IMG/VR virus record: IMGVR_UViG_2711768060_000007
Coordinates: 1-6,337 of that record
Length of the DNA stretch: 6,337 bases
From: a virus
Taxonomy: Duplodnaviria > Heunggongvirae > Uroviricota > Caudoviricetes
Reading direction: 5' to 3' (one strand)
How positions within the stretch are numbered: the stretch's first letter is position 1; every line of letters begins with the position of its first letter. This document shows positions 285 through 6,337 of this stretch, piece after piece. A program made the position numbers and the translations under genes. The notes beneath the pieces are model-generated. The model saw only the letters and a list, made by a program, of their open reading frames with translations. It was not told the origin of the DNA and did no database searches.

Positions 285-827
285 TCAGGTATTTTGTGGC
301 TGCTCAGGCCAGCTAATATTGTTGTATGTGGTCTTATCCGTAATAGCGCTGAAATCCATCGCCTGCAGCGATTTCGCGTAAATGCGGTACGCTTTCAGCT
401 TCTCCCTGTCTTCGTCACTGATTAATCCCGGCAGCAGGTCTTTTTCCCACTCGCTGGTCATGATGCTGACCTGTTTTAACAGGGCATCGCGCTCATCTTC
501 CGCTTTAAGTTTGTAGTCGAAGACAAATTTATCGTCGCGGTAAAACCAGTAACCAGGCACGGTAATACGGCGATTAGCGGTAATATCAGGAACTTCAATA
601 ACACTGGCGTTACGGGGTTCAATGCCTGTCACATCCTTACCGACCCACACCACGCGCCCGTCTCCGGTGTAAACCATTTTTATGGTGTCACTGGCAAAAT
701 TCTTCTGTTCTTCATACCAGTTTTTTCCGTCTTCCGAAAAAAGCCAGGTGACACCATATTGTTTTGTCAGCTGATATTGTTCCGCGGTTTTCGGATTACC
801 CGCAGTAATATTTTTTAAATGTAACAT
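285..827 (-). CDS. G: tail fiber assembly chaperone (P2 gpG / Tfa family)
   Basis: 180-aa ORF. N-terminus MLHLKNITAGNPKTAEQYQLTKQYGVTWLFSEDGKNWYEEQKNF closely resembles P2 gpG as recalled. C-terminus ...KLKAYRIYAKSLQAMDFS...ISWPEQP matches the Tfa C-terminal pattern. Start ATG (827..825) is 2 nt after the upstream fiber stop TAA (832..830), indicating translational coupling. Confidence 0.85.
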   Translation of the reverse strand: MLHLKNITAGNPKTAEQYQLTKQYGVTWLFSEDGKNWYEEQKNFASDTIKMVYTGDGRVVWVGKDVTGIEPRNASVIEVPDITANRRITVPGYWFYRDDKFVFDYKLKAEDERDALLKQVSIMTSEWEKDLLPGLISDEDREKLKAYRIYAKSLQAMDFSAITDKTTYNNISWPEQPQNT

Positions 828-829
828 TG

Positions 830-1303
830 TTAAACACTCGCCACGTTATACCAGGTGCCATTAATCAGTTTCTGAAGCGGACGGTAATACACGCCGCCGA
901 TGTTATCTGCCGAATTACTTCCGGTTTCCTGCACATTAATACCGGATAACCCGTAGCCTGCAGGTGAGCGAAATGTCCAGGAAATTTCATTTCCCCCAGG
1001 GTTATAGAACATTTCGGAACCATAACGCACATCCTGCACGCCGCCATTTCGCTGCTGATAACGGGCATCGAAATTTCCATAGTTTGATGGGGTCATCTGT
1101 CCGTTTACAGCGAATGTGATACTGCCATCGGTATTTCTCTGGCTGTAAAAATGCCAGCCGGAATCATCACCAAGCTCTGCAACTACAGGTCGGGATGAAT
1201 TACCCCATAAATTAAACGTTGCGTTTTTCGTGGAGTTGTTGGCGCTGGATAACGTGAATTTTTTAGCATTTCCGGCCTGAATATTTTTTAACGCTATCGC
1301 CAC
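830..1303 (-). CDS. H: tail fiber protein, C-terminal (tip) portion; 3' piece of a frame-shifted P2 H-like fiber gene
   Basis: 157-aa ORF from GTG 1303: (M/V)AIALKNIQAGNAKKFTLSSANNSTKNATFNLWGNSSRPVVAELGDDSGWHFYSQRNTDGSITFAVNGQ...INGTWYNVASV, very like the P2 H C-terminus as recalled. The same frame is open upstream to a TAA at 1483..1481 and there encodes ...GYIGVQNALGGNSIAFGDNDTGIKQNGDGILDVYANGQHVFRFQNG, which is also fiber-like. The real coding extent in this frame is therefore about 830..1480. Confidence 0.75.
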   Translation of the reverse strand: MAIALKNIQAGNAKKFTLSSANNSTKNATFNLWGNSSRPVVAELGDDSGWHFYSQRNTDGSITFAVNGQMTPSNYGNFDARYQQRNGGVQDVRYGSEMFYNPGGNEISWTFRSPAGYGLSGINVQETGSNSADNIGGVYYRPLQKLINGTWYNVASV

Positions 1304-1371
1304 ACCATTCTGGAAACGAAATACATGCTGTCCATTCGCATAAACATCCAGAATGCCGTCGCCGTTTTGTT

Positions 1372-2259
1372 TTATACCTGTATCGTTATCCCCGAAAGCA
1401 ATTGAGTTTCCGCCCAGCGCGTTCTGAACGCCGATATACCCAGCGCACCATTGACCTGAGAACCGCCGCCAACAGACACTTTATGCGACATGGATATTTC
1501 ACCCGTCCGCAGATTAATAGTGAACGGTCGAAGTGGACCAATATCGCCATTCTCGCCCTGACCTTCACTGGTAGGGATAAGATGCAGGCACTCTTCCGAA
1601 CGACGAAAAATAAGGCCAAAAGCGTCGTTGAAAATCCTCAGCGCATTAACGCCACGGATTTTCAGTTCCCCGGTCATGGTGTCACCATCACGCTGAACGG
1701 CATTTTTTGCCTTGTCCACCGTGGGTTTTAATCCGAGGTTTTCAACAGCCTCATCCTTGTCTTCCACATCCGAAAGATTCTTTTTTCGTTGCAGATAGCG
1801 TCTGTCTCCGATTTCCTGAGTAATAATGGCCCTGTTCGGGTCAATTTCCACCACCACACTTTCCGCATGCGTCAGTGTCAGCACCAGTGTGATAATCACT
1901 TCTTTCACAATGGAATCCGTCTGGGCAGGCAGATACGTATCCGGATAGCGCCCGTAAGCAATCAGCGTACCTGAACGACTGCGCAGCCCCAGTTCACGCA
2001 GGATTTTTCCCGGATATTTTTTGCAGTCAATCACCACCTGACCACTGATCATCCCTTCGTCACTGCCGGCTGTGGAAAAGGGTTCACTGCCAAACGGCCC
2101 ATACAACTGCGTGACCGCCGCCATATCATCCGGTGTATCCGGCAGGTTTCCGTCACCACCGTCACCCAGTACCACATCTGACAGAACAACCGTTTTACCG
2201 GCCTGCCAGGCGGCTTCAATCTCCCTGGCCCCGGCCAGCGTCAGGACAAGTCCGGACAT
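1372..2259 (-). CDS. H: tail fiber protein, N-terminal and shaft portion; 5' piece of a frame-shifted P2 H-like fiber gene
   Basis: 295-aa ORF. ATG 2259..2257 is preceded by GAGGAGG (2270..2264) with 4-nt spacing. N-terminus MSGLVLTLAGAREIEAAWQAGKTVVLSDVVLGDGGDGNLPDTPDD...ILRELGLRSRSGTLIAYGRY and internal ...KPTVDKAKNAVQRDGDTMTGEL match conserved P2 H-type motifs. The last ~20 codons before the stop at 1374..1372 (..ISAFRTRWAETQLLSGITIQV) look like out-of-frame readthrough. Confidence 0.8.
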   Translation of the reverse strand: MSGLVLTLAGAREIEAAWQAGKTVVLSDVVLGDGGDGNLPDTPDDMAAVTQLYGPFGSEPFSTAGSDEGMISGQVVIDCKKYPGKILRELGLRSRSGTLIAYGRYPDTYLPAQTDSIVKEVIITLVLTLTHAESVVVEIDPNRAIITQEIGDRRYLQRKKNLSDVEDKDEAVENLGLKPTVDKAKNAVQRDGDTMTGELKIRGVNALRIFNDAFGLIFRRSEECLHLIPTSEGQGENGDIGPLRPFTINLRTGEISMSHKVSVGGGSQVNGALGISAFRTRWAETQLLSGITIQV

Positions 2260-2456
2260 ACAGCCTCCTCTGTGGTCAGACCAAATACACGGACAAGGCG
2301 GTCACGGAGTTCCGGGCTGACCTCTTTTTTCTCTTCATCAATGTCTCCGTCGTTAATCACCAGAACCCCGGCCCGGGCCAGTGTCTGCAGGTACGCAACG
2401 AAACAACTGTCCGTCTGGCAGAAATGAATTAACGTCTTCATCTGAACGAACGTCAT
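2241..2456 (-). CDS. hypothetical small acidic protein (71 aa), function unknown
   Basis: ATG 2456..2454 lies 2 nt after the upstream TAA (2461..2459) and has GGAG 6 nt upstream. Its stop TGA (2243..2241) overlaps the first codons of the fiber gene. It exactly fills the I-H gap with coupling at both ends. Translation: MTFVQMKTLIHFCQTDSCFVAYLQTLARAGVLVINDGDIDEEKKEVSPELRDRLVRVFGLTTEEAVCPDLS. No family recognised. The ORF track gives a longer 88-aa version from ATG 2507, which overlaps the upstream gene by 49 nt. Confidence 0.4.
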   Translation of the reverse strand: MTFVQMKTLIHFCQTDSCFVAYLQTLARAGVLVINDGDIDEEKKEVSPELRDRLVRVFGLTTEEAVCPDLS

Positions 2457-2458
2457 GG

Positions 2459-5400
2459 TTAACTCCATCCTGTCGGCAATTCGCCGTAATCGTCCAGTGC
2501 TGTGCACTGAAACAGTGTTCTTGCATGGATGACCTGCTCAGGCAGTCTGCTGATAAATGACAGCCCGTGCCCGCGCAGCTTCACACACCCTTCAAACGCG
2601 CTTCTTACATCCGTCACCGTACTGAAAAAATCCGGGCTGAAAATCGCCTCCACAATACTTTCCAGTGATACACATCTGTCAAAGAGGTGCCCGGCATCCG
2701 ATACCGCTGTACCGGAAAGCAAGCCTGTTTCCGCCTGTTTCAGTGATGTGCACTGGCTGAACGCATAGCTGAAATCCGTGGCCAGACTGTTACCGGAAAA
2801 CAGATCCGCGGGGACCACCTCCAGACGGGAACATTTCATAAACACCTTACTGAACGTGGTGACGTGCAGGTTGTGACGGAACAGCCCTGCAGGCACTGAG
2901 ACCAGTCCGGTTTCAGAAAACGCACTCAGGAAGACGGATATCAGCGGACAGGCAGCAAACAGCGACTCCGGTACGGTCTGCAGCGCTGTACATCCCGCAA
3001 AAGCACTCTCCACCGTAACCAGCAGCGGATTGTGCTCAAACACACCGGGCGGAACAGTGGTCAGTGATGTGCAGGAATAAAAAATACCCCTGGCGGTCGT
3101 CAGTTTCGTCATGGCTCCAAACAGGTCGTCCGGGAGGCTTTCCAGCGAAATGCAGCCACTGAACGTCATCCAGAGATAGGTGACTCCGGGAACATTGCCA
3201 AACAGCATCAGCGGCAGGGTGCGCAGAGCGCGGCAGTTCCTGAATACCTCCAGTAGCTCTTTAATTTCTGAGCACCCGTCAAATAAGCGGGCTCCAACAG
3301 AGCGCAGCGAGACACAGTCGACGAACAGCCCCCGGACCTGTGTCAGGGCGGTGCAGTCACTGAATACACGTTCCCCCACGCGCAGCAGACCGGAACACGC
3401 CATAAAGGCGTTATACACGTTGATGAGATTTTCAGCCCCTCTGAACGCACCGTCAGGGATCTCCGTCAGTGACTCGCAGTTACGAAATGCAGAATGAAGG
3501 GTCGTCAGCTCACGGCAGTCACCAAAATCCGGCATTACGCTCAGCACCCGGCAGTTATAAAATGCCGAAGCAAAGTCTTTTGCACCGGTACAGCCTGCCA
3601 GAAGCCCCTCTCCGGTGCTTTGCAGTGATTTATCACCGTAAAATGCGAAAGAAAAATCTCCTGCCCCCGTGCAGTTACGGAACAGATGGTCTCCGGTGGT
3701 ACGCAGCGCCGTACAGTTTCTGAACACACTGTTGAAGGTGGTGACGCTGGTCAGATTTTCAAACAGGCCATCCGGGAGGGACTGTAATGCACTGCAGTCC
3801 ATAAATGCCTCCCGGAATGTCGTTGAGCGGATGCACGGGCTGAACATCCCGGAAGGTACCGCCGTCAGTGACGTACATTTGCTGAATGTCCGGGAAAAAT
3901 CCCCGCCAGGCACATGGCTGAAGATACCTCCGGGAATGGTCGCCAGTCGACTGCAGGAATAAAACGCCTCCCTGAACTGCGTGGCACTGACACAGCCAGT
4001 AAACAGCCCCTCGCCGATACTGGTCAGTGAGGTACAGTTATAAAAAAGCCTGCCAAAATCCTTGGCCGATGTGCAGCCTGAAAACAGGTCTCGCCCCACC
4101 GTCTGCAACGCGCTGCAGCCATAAAATGCACTGTCAAACGTACCCGCGTTCTCCAGACCACGGAATAAGCCGTCAGGGACAGCTGACAGCGAGGTACAAT
4201 TACTGAAGACGCCTCTGAAACTCCGGGCCTCAGTGAAGCCGGCGAAGAGTGTGGCGGGAACCGTCTCCAGTGCGGTACAACCAGTAAACAGGCTGTAACA
4301 GTCCCGTACCCCCTGCAGTCCCTTAAAGGCGTCGTCATGTACAGTGACCAGGTTTCGCTGTCCACTGACAAACGACGCTAATGAACTCACTGTTCCCGTA
4401 TAACGAACCAGCTCCGTGACCGGATTCAGGGCGGCGGAGAACGCGTCTGCTGTGCGTTGCAGCGTGGCCTGCCCGGGGTTTTTTACGGTAATAAGATATT
4501 CGGTACCCTCCGTCAGCGGGCGTGTGGCGTATACACCATACAGCACACCGGAATTTGTACTCCTGAGCGCATACTCTCTGTTATCACCGTCACCGTAATT
4601 AATCAGGAAATCAGCGTTTTCAGGCCGGACAAAAAATAAGGGCCGGTCAGCAGACTCCACCCGGGAGACAAACGCCAGCACCGGAACCACCTTCACGCTG
4701 ACCGTGCAACTGATACCGTTGAGGGTGGTCACGGTAACCTGGCATTCTCCGTACGTCTGTCCCGTCAGTAGAAAACCGCCTTCCGCCAGGGTGGCTGTGA
4801 CACAACCAGGCTCTGCAACCCGGACAGTGAAACTTTTGTCTTCCGCCTCCGGTGGCAGGATAGTGACGCCGATAAAACGACATTCCCCGGGCTCCAGCCA
4901 GACTTCCGTTTCCGTCAGGGTGATACCGGTCGGAAAAATGCGGCTCCTTATATATTCGGTGGCACAGGCGTAACCGGCTGCATAAACCGGGCCTGCACTG
5001 CGACCATAAACGTGAACCGAAAACCATGAGCGCAGATTTTTCGCACGAAGCACCGCATGCTTCAGATCCTGATGATCATTCATCAGCACCGGTAAATCCT
5101 TCTGCTCCACGTTCAGACGAAAGGTATACGGCTCCCCGGGTGGGGTCTGCTCATACCACTCAACAATCTGCGACCGGAAGGGACTGTCAGCCAGCGATGC
5201 CATCAGCGCCGCTTTAGTCCCTCTGTGGCGGTGGATGTAAGCAGCACGTTTTATCGCAGACCTTTTTTCCGTCTCCGTCCAGTGTTCATTCCAGGTATCC
5301 ACCGCCATTTCCCAGGCCAGCCATGGCAGCAATTCAGCAGGGCATAAATCGGGATTTTTCACATAGCGGATCAGGCAGACCGCTATGTCTGACAGCATAT

Positions 5401-5476
5401 CTCCGGCGACACAGTCCACCACCCGCTCTGCCCGGCGGGCACTGACCGGCAGTATGCTCCTGATATCGTCATTCAT
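2459..5476 (-). CDS. baseplate wedge protein I (P2 gpI family) with large C-terminal extension: Ig-like domain plus ~22 BspA-type leucine-rich repeats
   Basis: Uninterrupted 1005-codon ORF. ATG 5476..5474 has GGAG 7 nt upstream and overlaps the end of the J reading frame (ATGAATGA). Residues 1-~180 (4937..5476) carry the gpI signature ...NPDLCPAELLPWLAWEMAVDTWNEHWTETEKRSAIKRAAYIHRHRGTKAAL.... Residues ~183-265 (4682..4930) look like a Big_2-type Ig fold (..FTVRVAEPGCVTATLAEGGFLLTGQTYGECQVTVTTLNGISCTVSVKV). Residues ~382-990 (2507..4333) are tandem 26-27-aa units, e.g. FSNCTSLSAVPDGLFRGLENAGTFDSA, FYGCSALQTVGRDLFSGCTSAKDFGRL, FMDCSALQSLPDGLFENLTSVTTFNSV. Confidence 0.9.
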   Translation of the reverse strand: MNDDIRSILPVSARRAERVVDCVAGDMLSDIAVCLIRYVKNPDLCPAELLPWLAWEMAVDTWNEHWTETEKRSAIKRAAYIHRHRGTKAALMASLADSPFRSQIVEWYEQTPPGEPYTFRLNVEQKDLPVLMNDHQDLKHAVLRAKNLRSWFSVHVYGRSAGPVYAAGYACATEYIRSRIFPTGITLTETEVWLEPGECRFIGVTILPPEAEDKSFTVRVAEPGCVTATLAEGGFLLTGQTYGECQVTVTTLNGISCTVSVKVVPVLAFVSRVESADRPLFFVRPENADFLINYGDGDNREYALRSTNSGVLYGVYATRPLTEGTEYLITVKNPGQATLQRTADAFSAALNPVTELVRYTGTVSSLASFVSGQRNLVTVHDDAFKGLQGVRDCYSLFTGCTALETVPATLFAGFTEARSFRGVFSNCTSLSAVPDGLFRGLENAGTFDSAFYGCSALQTVGRDLFSGCTSAKDFGRLFYNCTSLTSIGEGLFTGCVSATQFREAFYSCSRLATIPGGIFSHVPGGDFSRTFSKCTSLTAVPSGMFSPCIRSTTFREAFMDCSALQSLPDGLFENLTSVTTFNSVFRNCTALRTTGDHLFRNCTGAGDFSFAFYGDKSLQSTGEGLLAGCTGAKDFASAFYNCRVLSVMPDFGDCRELTTLHSAFRNCESLTEIPDGAFRGAENLINVYNAFMACSGLLRVGERVFSDCTALTQVRGLFVDCVSLRSVGARLFDGCSEIKELLEVFRNCRALRTLPLMLFGNVPGVTYLWMTFSGCISLESLPDDLFGAMTKLTTARGIFYSCTSLTTVPPGVFEHNPLLVTVESAFAGCTALQTVPESLFAACPLISVFLSAFSETGLVSVPAGLFRHNLHVTTFSKVFMKCSRLEVVPADLFSGNSLATDFSYAFSQCTSLKQAETGLLSGTAVSDAGHLFDRCVSLESIVEAIFSPDFFSTVTDVRSAFEGCVKLRGHGLSFISRLPEQVIHARTLFQCTALDDYGELPTGWS
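2507..4333 (-). repeat. in-frame tandem coding repeats (~78-81 nt period, ~22 units) encoding BspA-type leucine-rich repeats
   Basis: Protein-level periodicity F-x-x-C-x-x-L-x-x-[VI]-[PG]-x-x-L-F-(x)8-F-x-x-A, repeated about 22 times. Related motifs recur on the plus strand at roughly 80-nt multiples: gaacagccc near 2879 and 3323, aaacaggcc at 3761, aaacagcccc at 4001, aaacaggtc at 4082 (4081 begins aaaacaggtc), ggaataagcc at 4162. Units are diverged, not identical. Confidence 0.7.
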
Positions 5477-5575: not shown

Positions 5576-6268
5576 TCACCCCGGTCTGGTGCAGAGCACC
5601 ATAATATCCGCCACCACATCGTAGGGAATAATTTCTGCCGTCCGGACACTGACAAAATCCGTCAGGGGACGGGTTTCATCATCACAGACTGATGCTGCCA
5701 CCTTATCCAGCAGGGGTTGTGATGCAGTGCCATTTCCGGACCGGGATAACACATAAAGAAAAACCCGGCCTTCCTGCGAATGTGTTTCCGGCCCGTAAGC
5801 CTTCACATCCAGCACATCAGGATCAGCACTTTGTGCAAAATAGTGATACGCATTTTTCGCGCCGGCGGTGCTGAGCCGTGCCCATGACAACTGGATACGT
5901 TCGCGAAAAGCGTCATCATCTTCATACACCGCCGGCGTGGGCGGAATGGTGCTGTCGTCTGCCGGGGTAATAACCAGCCGCTGAACCTGATAATTCGCGC
6001 CAACCTGATCCAGGTCGTTCCCACCGGCACTGGCAAGCAGTACAGCACGGACAGCATCATTGATCTGCTGGCGCATCAGCGCCACCCGATAAGCCAGCGC
6101 CTCTGCCCATTTATATGCGGGATCAGATTCCACCAGAGCCGAAAACAACGTATCCAGCTCCTGATACTTCGCCACTATCTGAGTGACCAGCACAGCGGTG
6201 TCCGGCACATCCACTACATCCGGTACAGGTATCGCGGACAAATCAATAATGGCCTGAGACGTTGCCAA
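5576..6268 (-). CDS. J: baseplate assembly protein J (P2 gpJ family); ORF ends early, apparent frameshift near the 3' end
   Basis: 230-aa ORF from TTG 6268..6266, with GAGGAG 7 nt upstream and an in-frame TAA two codons before. Translation (M)ATSQAIIDLSAIPVPDVV...NDAVRAVLLASAGGNDLDQVGANYQVQRLVITPADDSTIPPTPAV... matches P2 gpJ motifs as recalled (IIDL..LP.PDVV; RAV.LA.AAGNDLD; L.ITPADDSTIPPTPAV). Stop TGA is at 5578..5576. The adjacent frame over 5469..5579 encodes VITVNLTSPASDIVPAMGQAPWCRRVTLNKVETTDE and ends overlapping the gene I start, which looks like the true J C-terminus. Confidence 0.8.
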   Translation of the reverse strand: MATSQAIIDLSAIPVPDVVDVPDTAVLVTQIVAKYQELDTLFSALVESDPAYKWAEALAYRVALMRQQINDAVRAVLLASAGGNDLDQVGANYQVQRLVITPADDSTIPPTPAVYEDDDAFRERIQLSWARLSTAGAKNAYHYFAQSADPDVLDVKAYGPETHSQEGRVFLYVLSRSGNGTASQPLLDKVAASVCDDETRPLTDFVSVRTAEIIPYDVVADIMVLCTRPG

Positions 6269-6337
6269 TTTTTATCTCCTCGAGTCGAATCGTTTCCTGA
6301 GTTTCGTTATTCACCCCGACAAGCGTCAGCCAGGCGC

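What the first reader, a model, noticed from the sequence alone, without database searches (positions are those of the whole stretch)
1372..1483. Tail fiber gene H-like is split by a frameshift, probably at a short G run
The fiber is in two ORFs in different frames: 2259..830 spans 1430 nt, which is not a multiple of 3. The C-terminal frame is open upstream to 1480 and encodes fiber-like sequence (..GYIGVQNALGGNSIAFGDNDTG..), while the N-terminal frame runs into a stop at 1372. Adding one nucleotide, for example in the GGG run at 1439..1441 (minus strand CTGGGTAT), would give a continuous ~476-aa fiber reading ..SQVNGALG-YIGVQNALGGNSIAFGDNDTG... This is either a homopolymer sequencing error, a genuine inactivating mutation, or slip-strand variation. 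Even when repaired the fiber is shorter than P2 H (about 670 aa, from memory).
Basis: partly seen in the sequence, partly recalled or inferred. Interest (0 to 1): 0.55.

Follow-up and report, generated by a model that had tools for sequence, protein, structure and literature searches.

The report
Tail fibre gene broken by 2-bp insertion
A prophage tail-fibre gene in an E. coli draft genome is split by a two-base (TA) insertion found in no related copy, next to a second broken tail gene, so it is an ordinary pseudogene in a decaying prophage or, less likely, an assembly error.

Summary
The minus-strand fibre gene (2259..830, 1430 nt) is split into a 295-codon ORF (stop at 1374..1372) and a second frame that is open from 1480.

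The proposed cause is wrong. No G is missing from the GGG run. The window has two extra bases, a TA duplication: GGGTATATCGG (TATAT = 1438..1434), where relatives have GGGTATCGG. Removing the TA gives a 475-aa protein 100% identical to WP_001585573.1. A near-identical prophage (4 substitutions over 6.2 kb) carries that intact gene.

The TATAT allele was absent wherever it could be checked. The best copy in each of 130 complete E. coli records lacks it. Exact-pattern scans of genome, metagenome and viral contigs found nothing. The 295-aa product is on record only for this contig (CXYG01000049.1, GCA_001269325.1).

The same contig also has a private 115-nt out-of-frame deletion in baseplate gene J (junction 5603|5602).

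The site has no slippery heptamer and no repeat tract, and the two-frame layout is not conserved. The best reading is a real inactivating mutation in a degrading prophage (about 0.7). An assembly error is the rival (about 0.2), and only the reads can separate them. Interest is low.

Aside: the neighbouring gpI carries a roughly 850-aa Ig plus leucine-rich-repeat extension.

The parts
830..2259 (-). Whole tail-fibre (P2 H-type) pseudogene, 1430 nt. Without the extra TA it is 1428 nt, giving 475 aa plus a stop.
   Evidence: The repaired translation is 100% identical to P0020 (WP_001585573.1).
1372..2259 (-). ORF A, 295 codons plus a stop. It has 275 native residues (PF12571 baseplate-attachment domain at aa 4-148, then proximal shaft) followed by 20 out-of-frame residues (SAFRTRWAETQLLSGITIQV).
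1434..1438 (-). TATAT, the site of the 2-nt insertion (a tandem TA/AT duplication). Relatives have TAT here. It falls in codons 274/275.
   Evidence: Alignment A1. Exact-pattern check in L001, L002 and L006.
830..1435 (-). Stranded C-terminal 201 codons (Ile275-Val475) plus stop, now in the -1 frame. This includes the receptor-binding tip, which is homologous to Mu gpS and the P2 H C-terminus. The first start-type codon in this frame is GTG at 1303, an internal Val codon with no Shine-Dalgarno-like sequence upstream of it.
285..827 (-). Tail fibre assembly chaperone (Caudo_TAP, 180 aa), intact.
5576..6268 (-). Baseplate J gene truncated to 230 aa (304 aa in relatives) by a 115-nt out-of-frame deletion. 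The junction lies between 5603 and 5602.
   Evidence: The truncated product is on record only for this contig.
2459..5476 (-). gpI-type baseplate protein, 1005 aa, intact. It has a Tail_P2_I domain (aa 9-149), an Ig-like segment, and about 22 leucine-rich repeats of 27 residues. This is context, the likely docking partner of the fibre N-terminus.
2241..2456 (-). 71-aa ORF between I and H (phrog_11426, function unknown). It overlaps the start of the fibre gene.
   Evidence: A 70-aa ORF sits in the same position in a Klebsiella phage.

Best explanation
The fibre gene is a pseudogene made by a 2-bp tandem duplication (TA) in codons 274/275 of a P2 H-type tail-fibre gene. The gene sits in an E. 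coli prophage that combines a lambda-like head module with a P2-like contractile tail. Translation now yields a 295-residue stub: the N-terminal baseplate-docking domain and proximal shaft, then 20 nonsense residues. The distal 200 residues are left in the -1 frame without a usable start. These include the receptor-binding tip, which the downstream Tfa chaperone would fold. Particles made from this prophage would therefore lack functional fibres. The prophage has also lost 115 nt of baseplate gene J. It is therefore most likely a defective prophage that is accumulating lesions under relaxed selection. Shown here: the nature and position of the lesion, its absence from all relatives examined, and the second lesion. 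Inferred: that both lesions are present in the strain's DNA and not only in the assembly, and that the tail is non-functional.
For: Alignment to intact E. coli fibres shows a single 2-nt gap (window GGGTATATCGG, relatives GGGTATCGG) inside a block of about 800 nt that is almost 100% identical. Deleting the TA gives 475 aa identical to WP_001585573.1. The prophage in Logan SRR35867296 (L006) differs from the window by 4 substitutions, the TA and the 115-nt J segment. It encodes an intact 475-aa fibre and a 304-aa J. ERR3372453 (L005) also has intact J and fibre genes. In 130 complete E. coli records (128 genomes) holding this stretch, the best copy is at most 84/86 identical, meaning it lacks the 2 nt. 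The TATAT pattern gave 0 hits in genome, metagenome and viral contig collections. The 295-aa and 230-aa truncated products are on record only for this contig. The insertion is not in a homopolymer, so it is not the classic platform error. The J junction shows no microhomology that could explain an assembly collapse. P2 H aligns in frame straight across the site. The C-terminal tip matches Mu tail fibre S, PDB 5yvq, at E = 2e-20. Precedent: laboratory lambda lacks side fibres because of a frameshift in stf (PMC12617516), and stf frameshifts arise readily under selection (PMC2762979).
Against: No reads were available, so a consensus or assembly error cannot be excluded. Both lesions are private to one short-contig draft assembly. 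That is what a poor assembly would also produce. Two indels against only 4 substitutions relative to L006 is a high ratio. The rest of the prophage is not in the window, so its overall state is unknown. The other four genes that lie wholly within the window are intact.
Confidence: 0.72

Rival explanations
1. Assembly or consensus error. The strain really carries the intact 475-aa gene (and perhaps an intact J), and the extra TA arose during assembly, scaffolding, gap-filling or polishing of the draft.
For: The allele occurs in a single 6.3-kb contig of a draft assembly and nowhere else. The contig ends inside genes that are repeated in other prophages (up to 6 places per genome). This is a region where short-read assemblers struggle. 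Apart from the two indels, the contig is almost identical to an intact prophage.
Against: The indel is a dinucleotide duplication outside any homopolymer, so it is not a typical platform error. The second lesion is a clean 115-nt deletion with no junction microhomology, which k-mer collapse does not explain. The 3-kb gpI, the Tfa gene and the 71-aa ORF on the same contig are error-free. The look-up reports the identical contig in 2 samples, though I could not tell whether those samples are independent.
Confidence: 0.22
2. The split is functional. Either programmed -1 ribosomal frameshifting (P-site slip of tRNA-Gly from GGU to GGG at CUG GGU AUA) or slip-strand phase variation of the TA tract produces a full-length fibre some of the time, or the two parts act as separate proteins.
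For: The C-terminal frame is -1 relative to the N-terminal frame. A -1 slip on G_GGU would give ..GALG-YIGVQ.., differing from the native protein by one extra residue. P2-like tails do use a -1 frameshift elsewhere, at E/E+E'.
Against: There is no X XXY YYZ heptamer (sequence). The downstream RNA is not unusually structured (z = -1.2). The two-frame layout is not conserved: every relative examined has one continuous frame. The tract is only TA x2.5, no tandem repeat is detected, and there is no length polymorphism among 130 records. The C-terminal frame has no start before an internal GTG with no ribosome-binding site. Baseplate gene J is broken as well, so a rescued fibre would have nothing to attach to.
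Confidence: 0.03
3. One reading: one base was lost from the GGG run (homopolymer slippage or error), and the ancestral gene encoded 476 aa.
For: Adding one G does restore an open 476-codon frame.
Against: No relative has the 1431-nt / GALGYIGVQ form. L001, L002 and L006 have GGGTATCGG with the same three Gs and two fewer bases. The best matches in 130 complete E. coli records span 84 nt, not 87.
Confidence: 0.02

Closest known systems
E. coli prophage tail fibre WP_001585573.1 (P0020, 475 aa; 'phage tail-collar fiber domain-containing protein')
   Same: Identical in every residue once the TA is removed. It occupies the same locus, J - long gpI - 71-aa ORF - fibre - Tfa - sheath, in L006.
   Different: The window copy has 2 extra nt at codons 274/275 and is split into two frames.
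Bacteriophage P2 tail fibre gpH (NP_046775.1, 669 aa) with chaperone gpG
   Same: Shares the PF12571 N-terminal domain. Residues 172-475 are 49% identical to H 376-669 (E = 4e-86) and residues 22-161 are 27% identical to H 26-163. The gene order V-W-J-I-H-G is the same.
   Different: It lacks the ~200-residue Phage_fiber_2 repeat region of H. The head genes of the prophage are lambda-like, not P2-like. The window copy is frameshifted.
Laboratory lambda stf frameshift (lambda wild type compared with Ur-lambda)
   Same: A tail-fibre gene with a downstream tfa chaperone is split by a spontaneous frameshift, which abolishes fibre synthesis (PMC12617516). stf frameshifts arise repeatedly under selection (PMC2762979).
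   Different: Lambda stays infectious through its central tail-tip protein gpJ, which is unrelated to P2 gpJ. Here the fibre belongs to a contractile P2-type baseplate, and a baseplate gene is broken too.
Phage Mu tail fibre gpS C-terminal domain (PDB 5yvq)
   Same: Fibre residues 377-474 match the gpS C-terminus at E = 2e-20. A Caudo_TAP chaperone is encoded immediately downstream.
   Different: There is no invertible segment or invertase in the window. The N-terminal part is P2 H-like.
P2 E/E+E' programmed -1 frameshift
   Same: Two overlapping frames in a tail gene, with the second frame at -1.
   Different: The P2 site is conserved and lies in the tail-assembly chaperone. The site here is private to one contig, lacks a slippery heptamer, and interrupts a gene that is continuous in all relatives.

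Membership tests
P2 gpH-type tail fibre | N-terminal tail-collar fibre domain (Pfam PF12571) | tested here: met
   aa 4-148, 53.5 bits against a cutoff of 23. P2 H itself scores 193 bits.
P2 gpH-type tail fibre | Sequence homology to P2 H beyond the N-terminal domain | tested here: met
   49% identity over aa 172-475 against H 376-669, E = 4e-86.
P2 gpH-type tail fibre | Position between baseplate genes J-I and a Tfa chaperone, upstream of the sheath gene | tested here: met
   P2 order shown.
P2 gpH-type tail fibre | Phage_fiber_2 (PF03406) repeats in the shaft | tested here: not met
   No hit, whereas P2 H scores 129 bits. The repeats are also absent from the Klebsiella Reipivirus fibre, so this marks a shorter subtype and does not exclude membership.
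P2 gpH-type tail fibre | One uninterrupted reading frame encoding both the attachment and the receptor-binding ends | tested here: not met
   the +2 insertion makes the window copy a pseudogene of this family.
P2 gpH-type tail fibre | Trimeric fibre folded with help from Tfa and bound to the baseplate | not testable with these tools
   Needs biochemistry or electron microscopy.
Programmed -1 ribosomal frameshift site | Slippery heptamer X XXY YYZ at the frame junction | tested here: not met
   The sequence in the zero frame is CUG GGU AUA UCG.
Programmed -1 ribosomal frameshift site | Two-frame arrangement conserved in relatives | tested here: not met
   all relatives examined have a single frame.
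Programmed -1 ribosomal frameshift site | Stable stimulatory RNA structure downstream | tested here: not met
   MFE -28.7 kcal/mol, z = -1.2, with 23 of 200 shuffles folding as well. No Rfam match.
Simple-sequence-repeat phase variation (contingency locus) | Tract of several tandem units | tested here: not met
   TA x2.5 only. Tandem Repeats Finder finds nothing in the window.
Simple-sequence-repeat phase variation (contingency locus) | Tract length varies among closely related copies | tested here: not met
   the best place in each of 130 complete E. coli records shows the same shorter form. L001, L002 and L006 all have TAT.
Homopolymer sequencing error | Indel lies within a mononucleotide run | tested here: not met
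   the GGG run has the same length in all sequences. The extra bases are TA.

The most novel reading that the evidence does not exclude
Both lesions are real, yet the locus is not dead. A low-frequency -1 slip of tRNA-Gly on CUG_GGU would restore a 476-aa fibre (..GALG-YIGVQ..). Alternatively, the 295-aa stub could cap the fibre sockets of a co-resident related prophage's baseplate and so modulate the host range or adsorption of that phage or tailocin.
Probability: 0.02. Interest if true: 0.35.

Novelty: already known. Interest (0 to 1): 0.1.

Why it matters
It matters mainly for annotation. The two ORFs should be annotated as a single frameshifted tail-fibre pseudogene whose lesion is a +2 insertion at 1438..1434. 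The neighbouring J gene should be marked as truncated, and the prophage scored as probably defective. If the lesions are real, they are a small and typical example of prophage decay, in which tail and host-range genes are lost while near-identical intact copies circulate in other strains. If they are assembly errors, they are a caution against calling pseudogenes from short-contig drafts. Neither outcome changes current understanding of phage biology.

Tried and rejected
- **Source and spread of the allele.** An exact TATAT pattern found nothing in species-representative genomes, metagenome contigs or viral contigs.
- A protein-guided scan of genome contigs with the 1005-aa gpI confirmed no relative. 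A literature search for the assembly and contig accessions found nothing, so the sequencing platform and the strain's history remain unknown.
- **Lost G in the GGG run.** Rejected from the alignment.
- **Programmed frameshifting.** Rejected: no heptamer, no conservation, and no unusual downstream RNA structure (z = -1.2).
- **Phase variation.** Rejected: no repeat tract and no length polymorphism.
- **Invertible-segment (Mu G / P1 C type) fibre switching.** This was considered as a reason for the two frames. It was rejected because the fibre and tfa genes are followed directly by the sheath gene, and the break is a simple 2-nt indel within otherwise collinear sequence.
- **Rfam.** No RNA families were found in the window.

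Full report
**What is in the window**

All the real genes are on the minus strand. In order they are:

| Gene | Coordinates | Notes |
|---|---|---|
| Baseplate J-type | 6268..5576 | truncated (see below) |
| gpI-type | 5476..2459 | 1005 aa |
| Small ORF | 2456..2241 | 71 aa |
| Tail fibre | 2259..830 | split into two frames |
| Tail-fibre assembly chaperone | 827..285 | Caudo_TAP |
| Sheath gene | contig end | start only |

The window is the complete contig CXYG01000049.1 of the E. coli draft assembly GCA_001269325.1.

In longer contigs of near-identical prophages, the same tail genes follow a lambda-type portal, a ClpP-capsid fusion, and decoration and head-tail joining genes. They precede P2-type sheath, tube and tape-measure genes. 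The element is therefore a prophage with a lambda-like head module and a P2-like contractile tail.

**Checking the observation**

- ORF A runs 2259..1372 (295 codons, stop at 1374..1372).
- The second frame has a stop at 1483..1481 and then stays open to the stop at 832..830. It reads ..GYIGVQNALGGNSIAFGDNDTG...
- The span is 1430 nt.
- GGG is at 1441..1439.

**What the lesion actually is**

I aligned the gene with intact fibres from E. coli SC407 (475 aa) and CEA224S. There is exactly one indel in the central block, which is about 800 nt long and almost 100% identical. The window reads CTGGGTATATCGG where both relatives read CTGGGTATCGG.

The three Gs are the same in all sequences. The window has two extra bases, a TA (or AT) duplicated within TATAT at 1438..1434.

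Deleting them gives a 1428-nt gene. Its 475-aa product is identical in every residue to WP_001585573.1 (P0020). No relative has that form. P2 gpH itself aligns in frame straight across the site: NGCFGVGTTNALGG in P2 against NGALGIGVQNALGG here.

**How widespread the allele is**

The allele is private to this contig.
- The 86-nt stretch around the site occurs at 180 places in 128 complete E. coli genomes. The best place in each of the 130 records is at most 84/86 identical and spans 84 nt, so it lacks the two bases.
- An exact TATAT pattern has no match in one-genome-per-species contigs, metagenome contigs or viral contigs.
- The 295-aa product is on record only for this contig.

The closest relative is a Logan assembly of SRR35867296 (L006). 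It differs from the window by four substitutions, this TA, and one further indel. It encodes the intact 475-aa fibre. ERR3372453 (L005) shares the identical 1005-aa gpI and also has an uninterrupted fibre, with a different tip.

**A second lesion**

The further indel is a 115-nt deletion in the window relative to L006, L005 and SC407. Its junction lies between 5603 and 5602.
- It is out of frame and cuts baseplate protein J from 304 to 230 residues.
- The truncated J is likewise on record only for this contig.
- The junction shows no microhomology, so a k-mer collapse during assembly is an unlikely cause.

**What the gene is and what the frameshift does**

The intact protein has three recognisable parts.
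- A PF12571 tail-collar N-terminal domain at aa 4-148. It is 27% identical to the P2 H N-terminus.
- A shaft.
- A C-terminal half that is 49% identical to P2 H 376-669. Its tip (aa 377-474) matches the solved Mu gpS C-terminal domain, PDB 5yvq, at E = 2e-20.

It lacks the Phage_fiber_2 repeats that make P2 H 669 aa long.

From general knowledge of P2/Mu-type fibres, the N-terminal domain docks on the baseplate. The gpI N-terminal domain here matches the R-pyocin baseplate protein Tri2 PA0619, PDB 6u5b. The C-terminal tip binds the receptor and needs the downstream Tfa chaperone to fold.

The insertion falls in codons 274/275. ORF A therefore encodes 275 native residues plus 20 nonsense residues. 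The 200 distal residues are stranded in the -1 frame, where the first start-type codon is an internal Val GTG at 1303 with no ribosome-binding site. The inferred outcome is that no functional fibre is made. With J truncated as well, the baseplate rim is probably not functional either.

**Alternatives**

*Programmed -1 frameshifting.* Unlikely, for three reasons.
- CUG GGU AUA is not an X XXY YYZ heptamer.
- The downstream RNA is unremarkable (z = -1.2), and there is no Rfam match.
- The arrangement is not conserved in any relative.

*Phase variation.* Also unlikely. The tract is TA x2.5, no tandem repeat is detected, and no length variation is seen among relatives.

*Assembly or consensus error.* This is the serious rival. 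Both lesions occur in one short contig of a draft, in a region flanked by sequence repeated among prophages. I had no reads. Several points argue against it:
- the indel is not in a homopolymer;
- the deletion junction is clean;
- the other genes on the contig are error-free, including the 3-kb gpI, whose product is identical to that of two independent assemblies.

I put a genuine mutation at about 0.7 and an artefact at about 0.2.

**Comparison with what is known**

A tail-fibre gene split by a spontaneous frameshift is a textbook situation. Laboratory lambda lacks side tail fibres for exactly this reason (PMC12617516), and stf frameshifts are readily selected (PMC2762979). Frameshifts and deletions in prophage structural genes are the usual route of prophage decay (general knowledge).

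The intact allele of this gene is already in public databases. The finding is therefore real as a sequence feature but ordinary. Its main value is correct annotation: one pseudogene with a +2 lesion, plus a truncated J.

**Side observations**

The most unusual thing in the window is not the frameshift but the neighbouring gpI.
- It carries an extension of about 850 residues after the Tail_P2_I domain: an Ig-like segment, then about 22 repeats of 27 residues with the pattern FxxCxxLxx(V/I)PxxLF (BspA/LRR_5-like).
- It is followed by a conserved 71-aa ORF.
- This 2.65-kb module has no megablast match in 5,426 complete E. coli genomes.
- It does occur in draft E. coli assemblies (37 cluster members).
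- At 40% identity, and with the same gene order, it occurs in Klebsiella Peduoviridae phages such as ST16-OXA48phi5.4.
- It corresponds to phrog_9915, function unknown. A role as a second receptor-binding module is my guess and is untested.

Noticed in passing
window 5576..6268 (-), junction 5603|5602: Baseplate J gene carries a private 115-nt out-of-frame deletion relative to L006, L005 and SC407. The product is 230 aa instead of 304. The junction shows no microhomology, and the truncated protein is on record only for this contig.
   Followed up: yes
window 2459..5476 (-): gpI-type baseplate protein of 1005 aa (P2 gpI is 176 aa). It has a Tail_P2_I domain (aa 9-149, matching pyocin Tri2 PA0619), an Ig-like segment (about aa 173-265), and about 22 BspA/LRR_5-like repeats of 27 residues (aa ~397-985). 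It has no megablast match in 5,426 complete E. coli genomes. It is 40% identical to 'tail protein I' of Klebsiella phage ST16-OXA48phi5.4, which has the same gene order. It corresponds to phrog_9915, function unknown. It may be an extra receptor-binding module.
   Followed up: partly
window 2241..2456 (-): A conserved 71-aa ORF (phrog_11426, no Pfam match) lies between the long gpI and the fibre and overlaps the fibre start. A 70-aa ORF sits in the same position in the Klebsiella phage. The ORF is absent from prophages with the short gpI (SC407), so it travels with the LRR extension. It may be a chaperone or adaptor.
   Followed up: partly
window 830..2259 (-), compared with L001/L002: The fibre gene is a mosaic. 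Its first ~420 nt are visibly diverged from the fibres of prophages with a short gpI, nt ~420-1240 are almost 100% identical, and the tip varies again. The diverged N-terminal docking domain goes with the long-gpI variant, which suggests the fibre N-terminus and the gpI C-terminus co-vary.
   Followed up: partly
window 1 and 6337 (contig ends): The window is an entire 6337-bp contig that ends inside the sheath gene (at window position 1) and the gpW gene (at 6337). These genes are shared with other P2-tail prophages, with up to 6 related places per E. coli genome. This suggests the strain carries at least one more related prophage that broke the assembly and could supply J and H functions in trans.
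   Followed up: no
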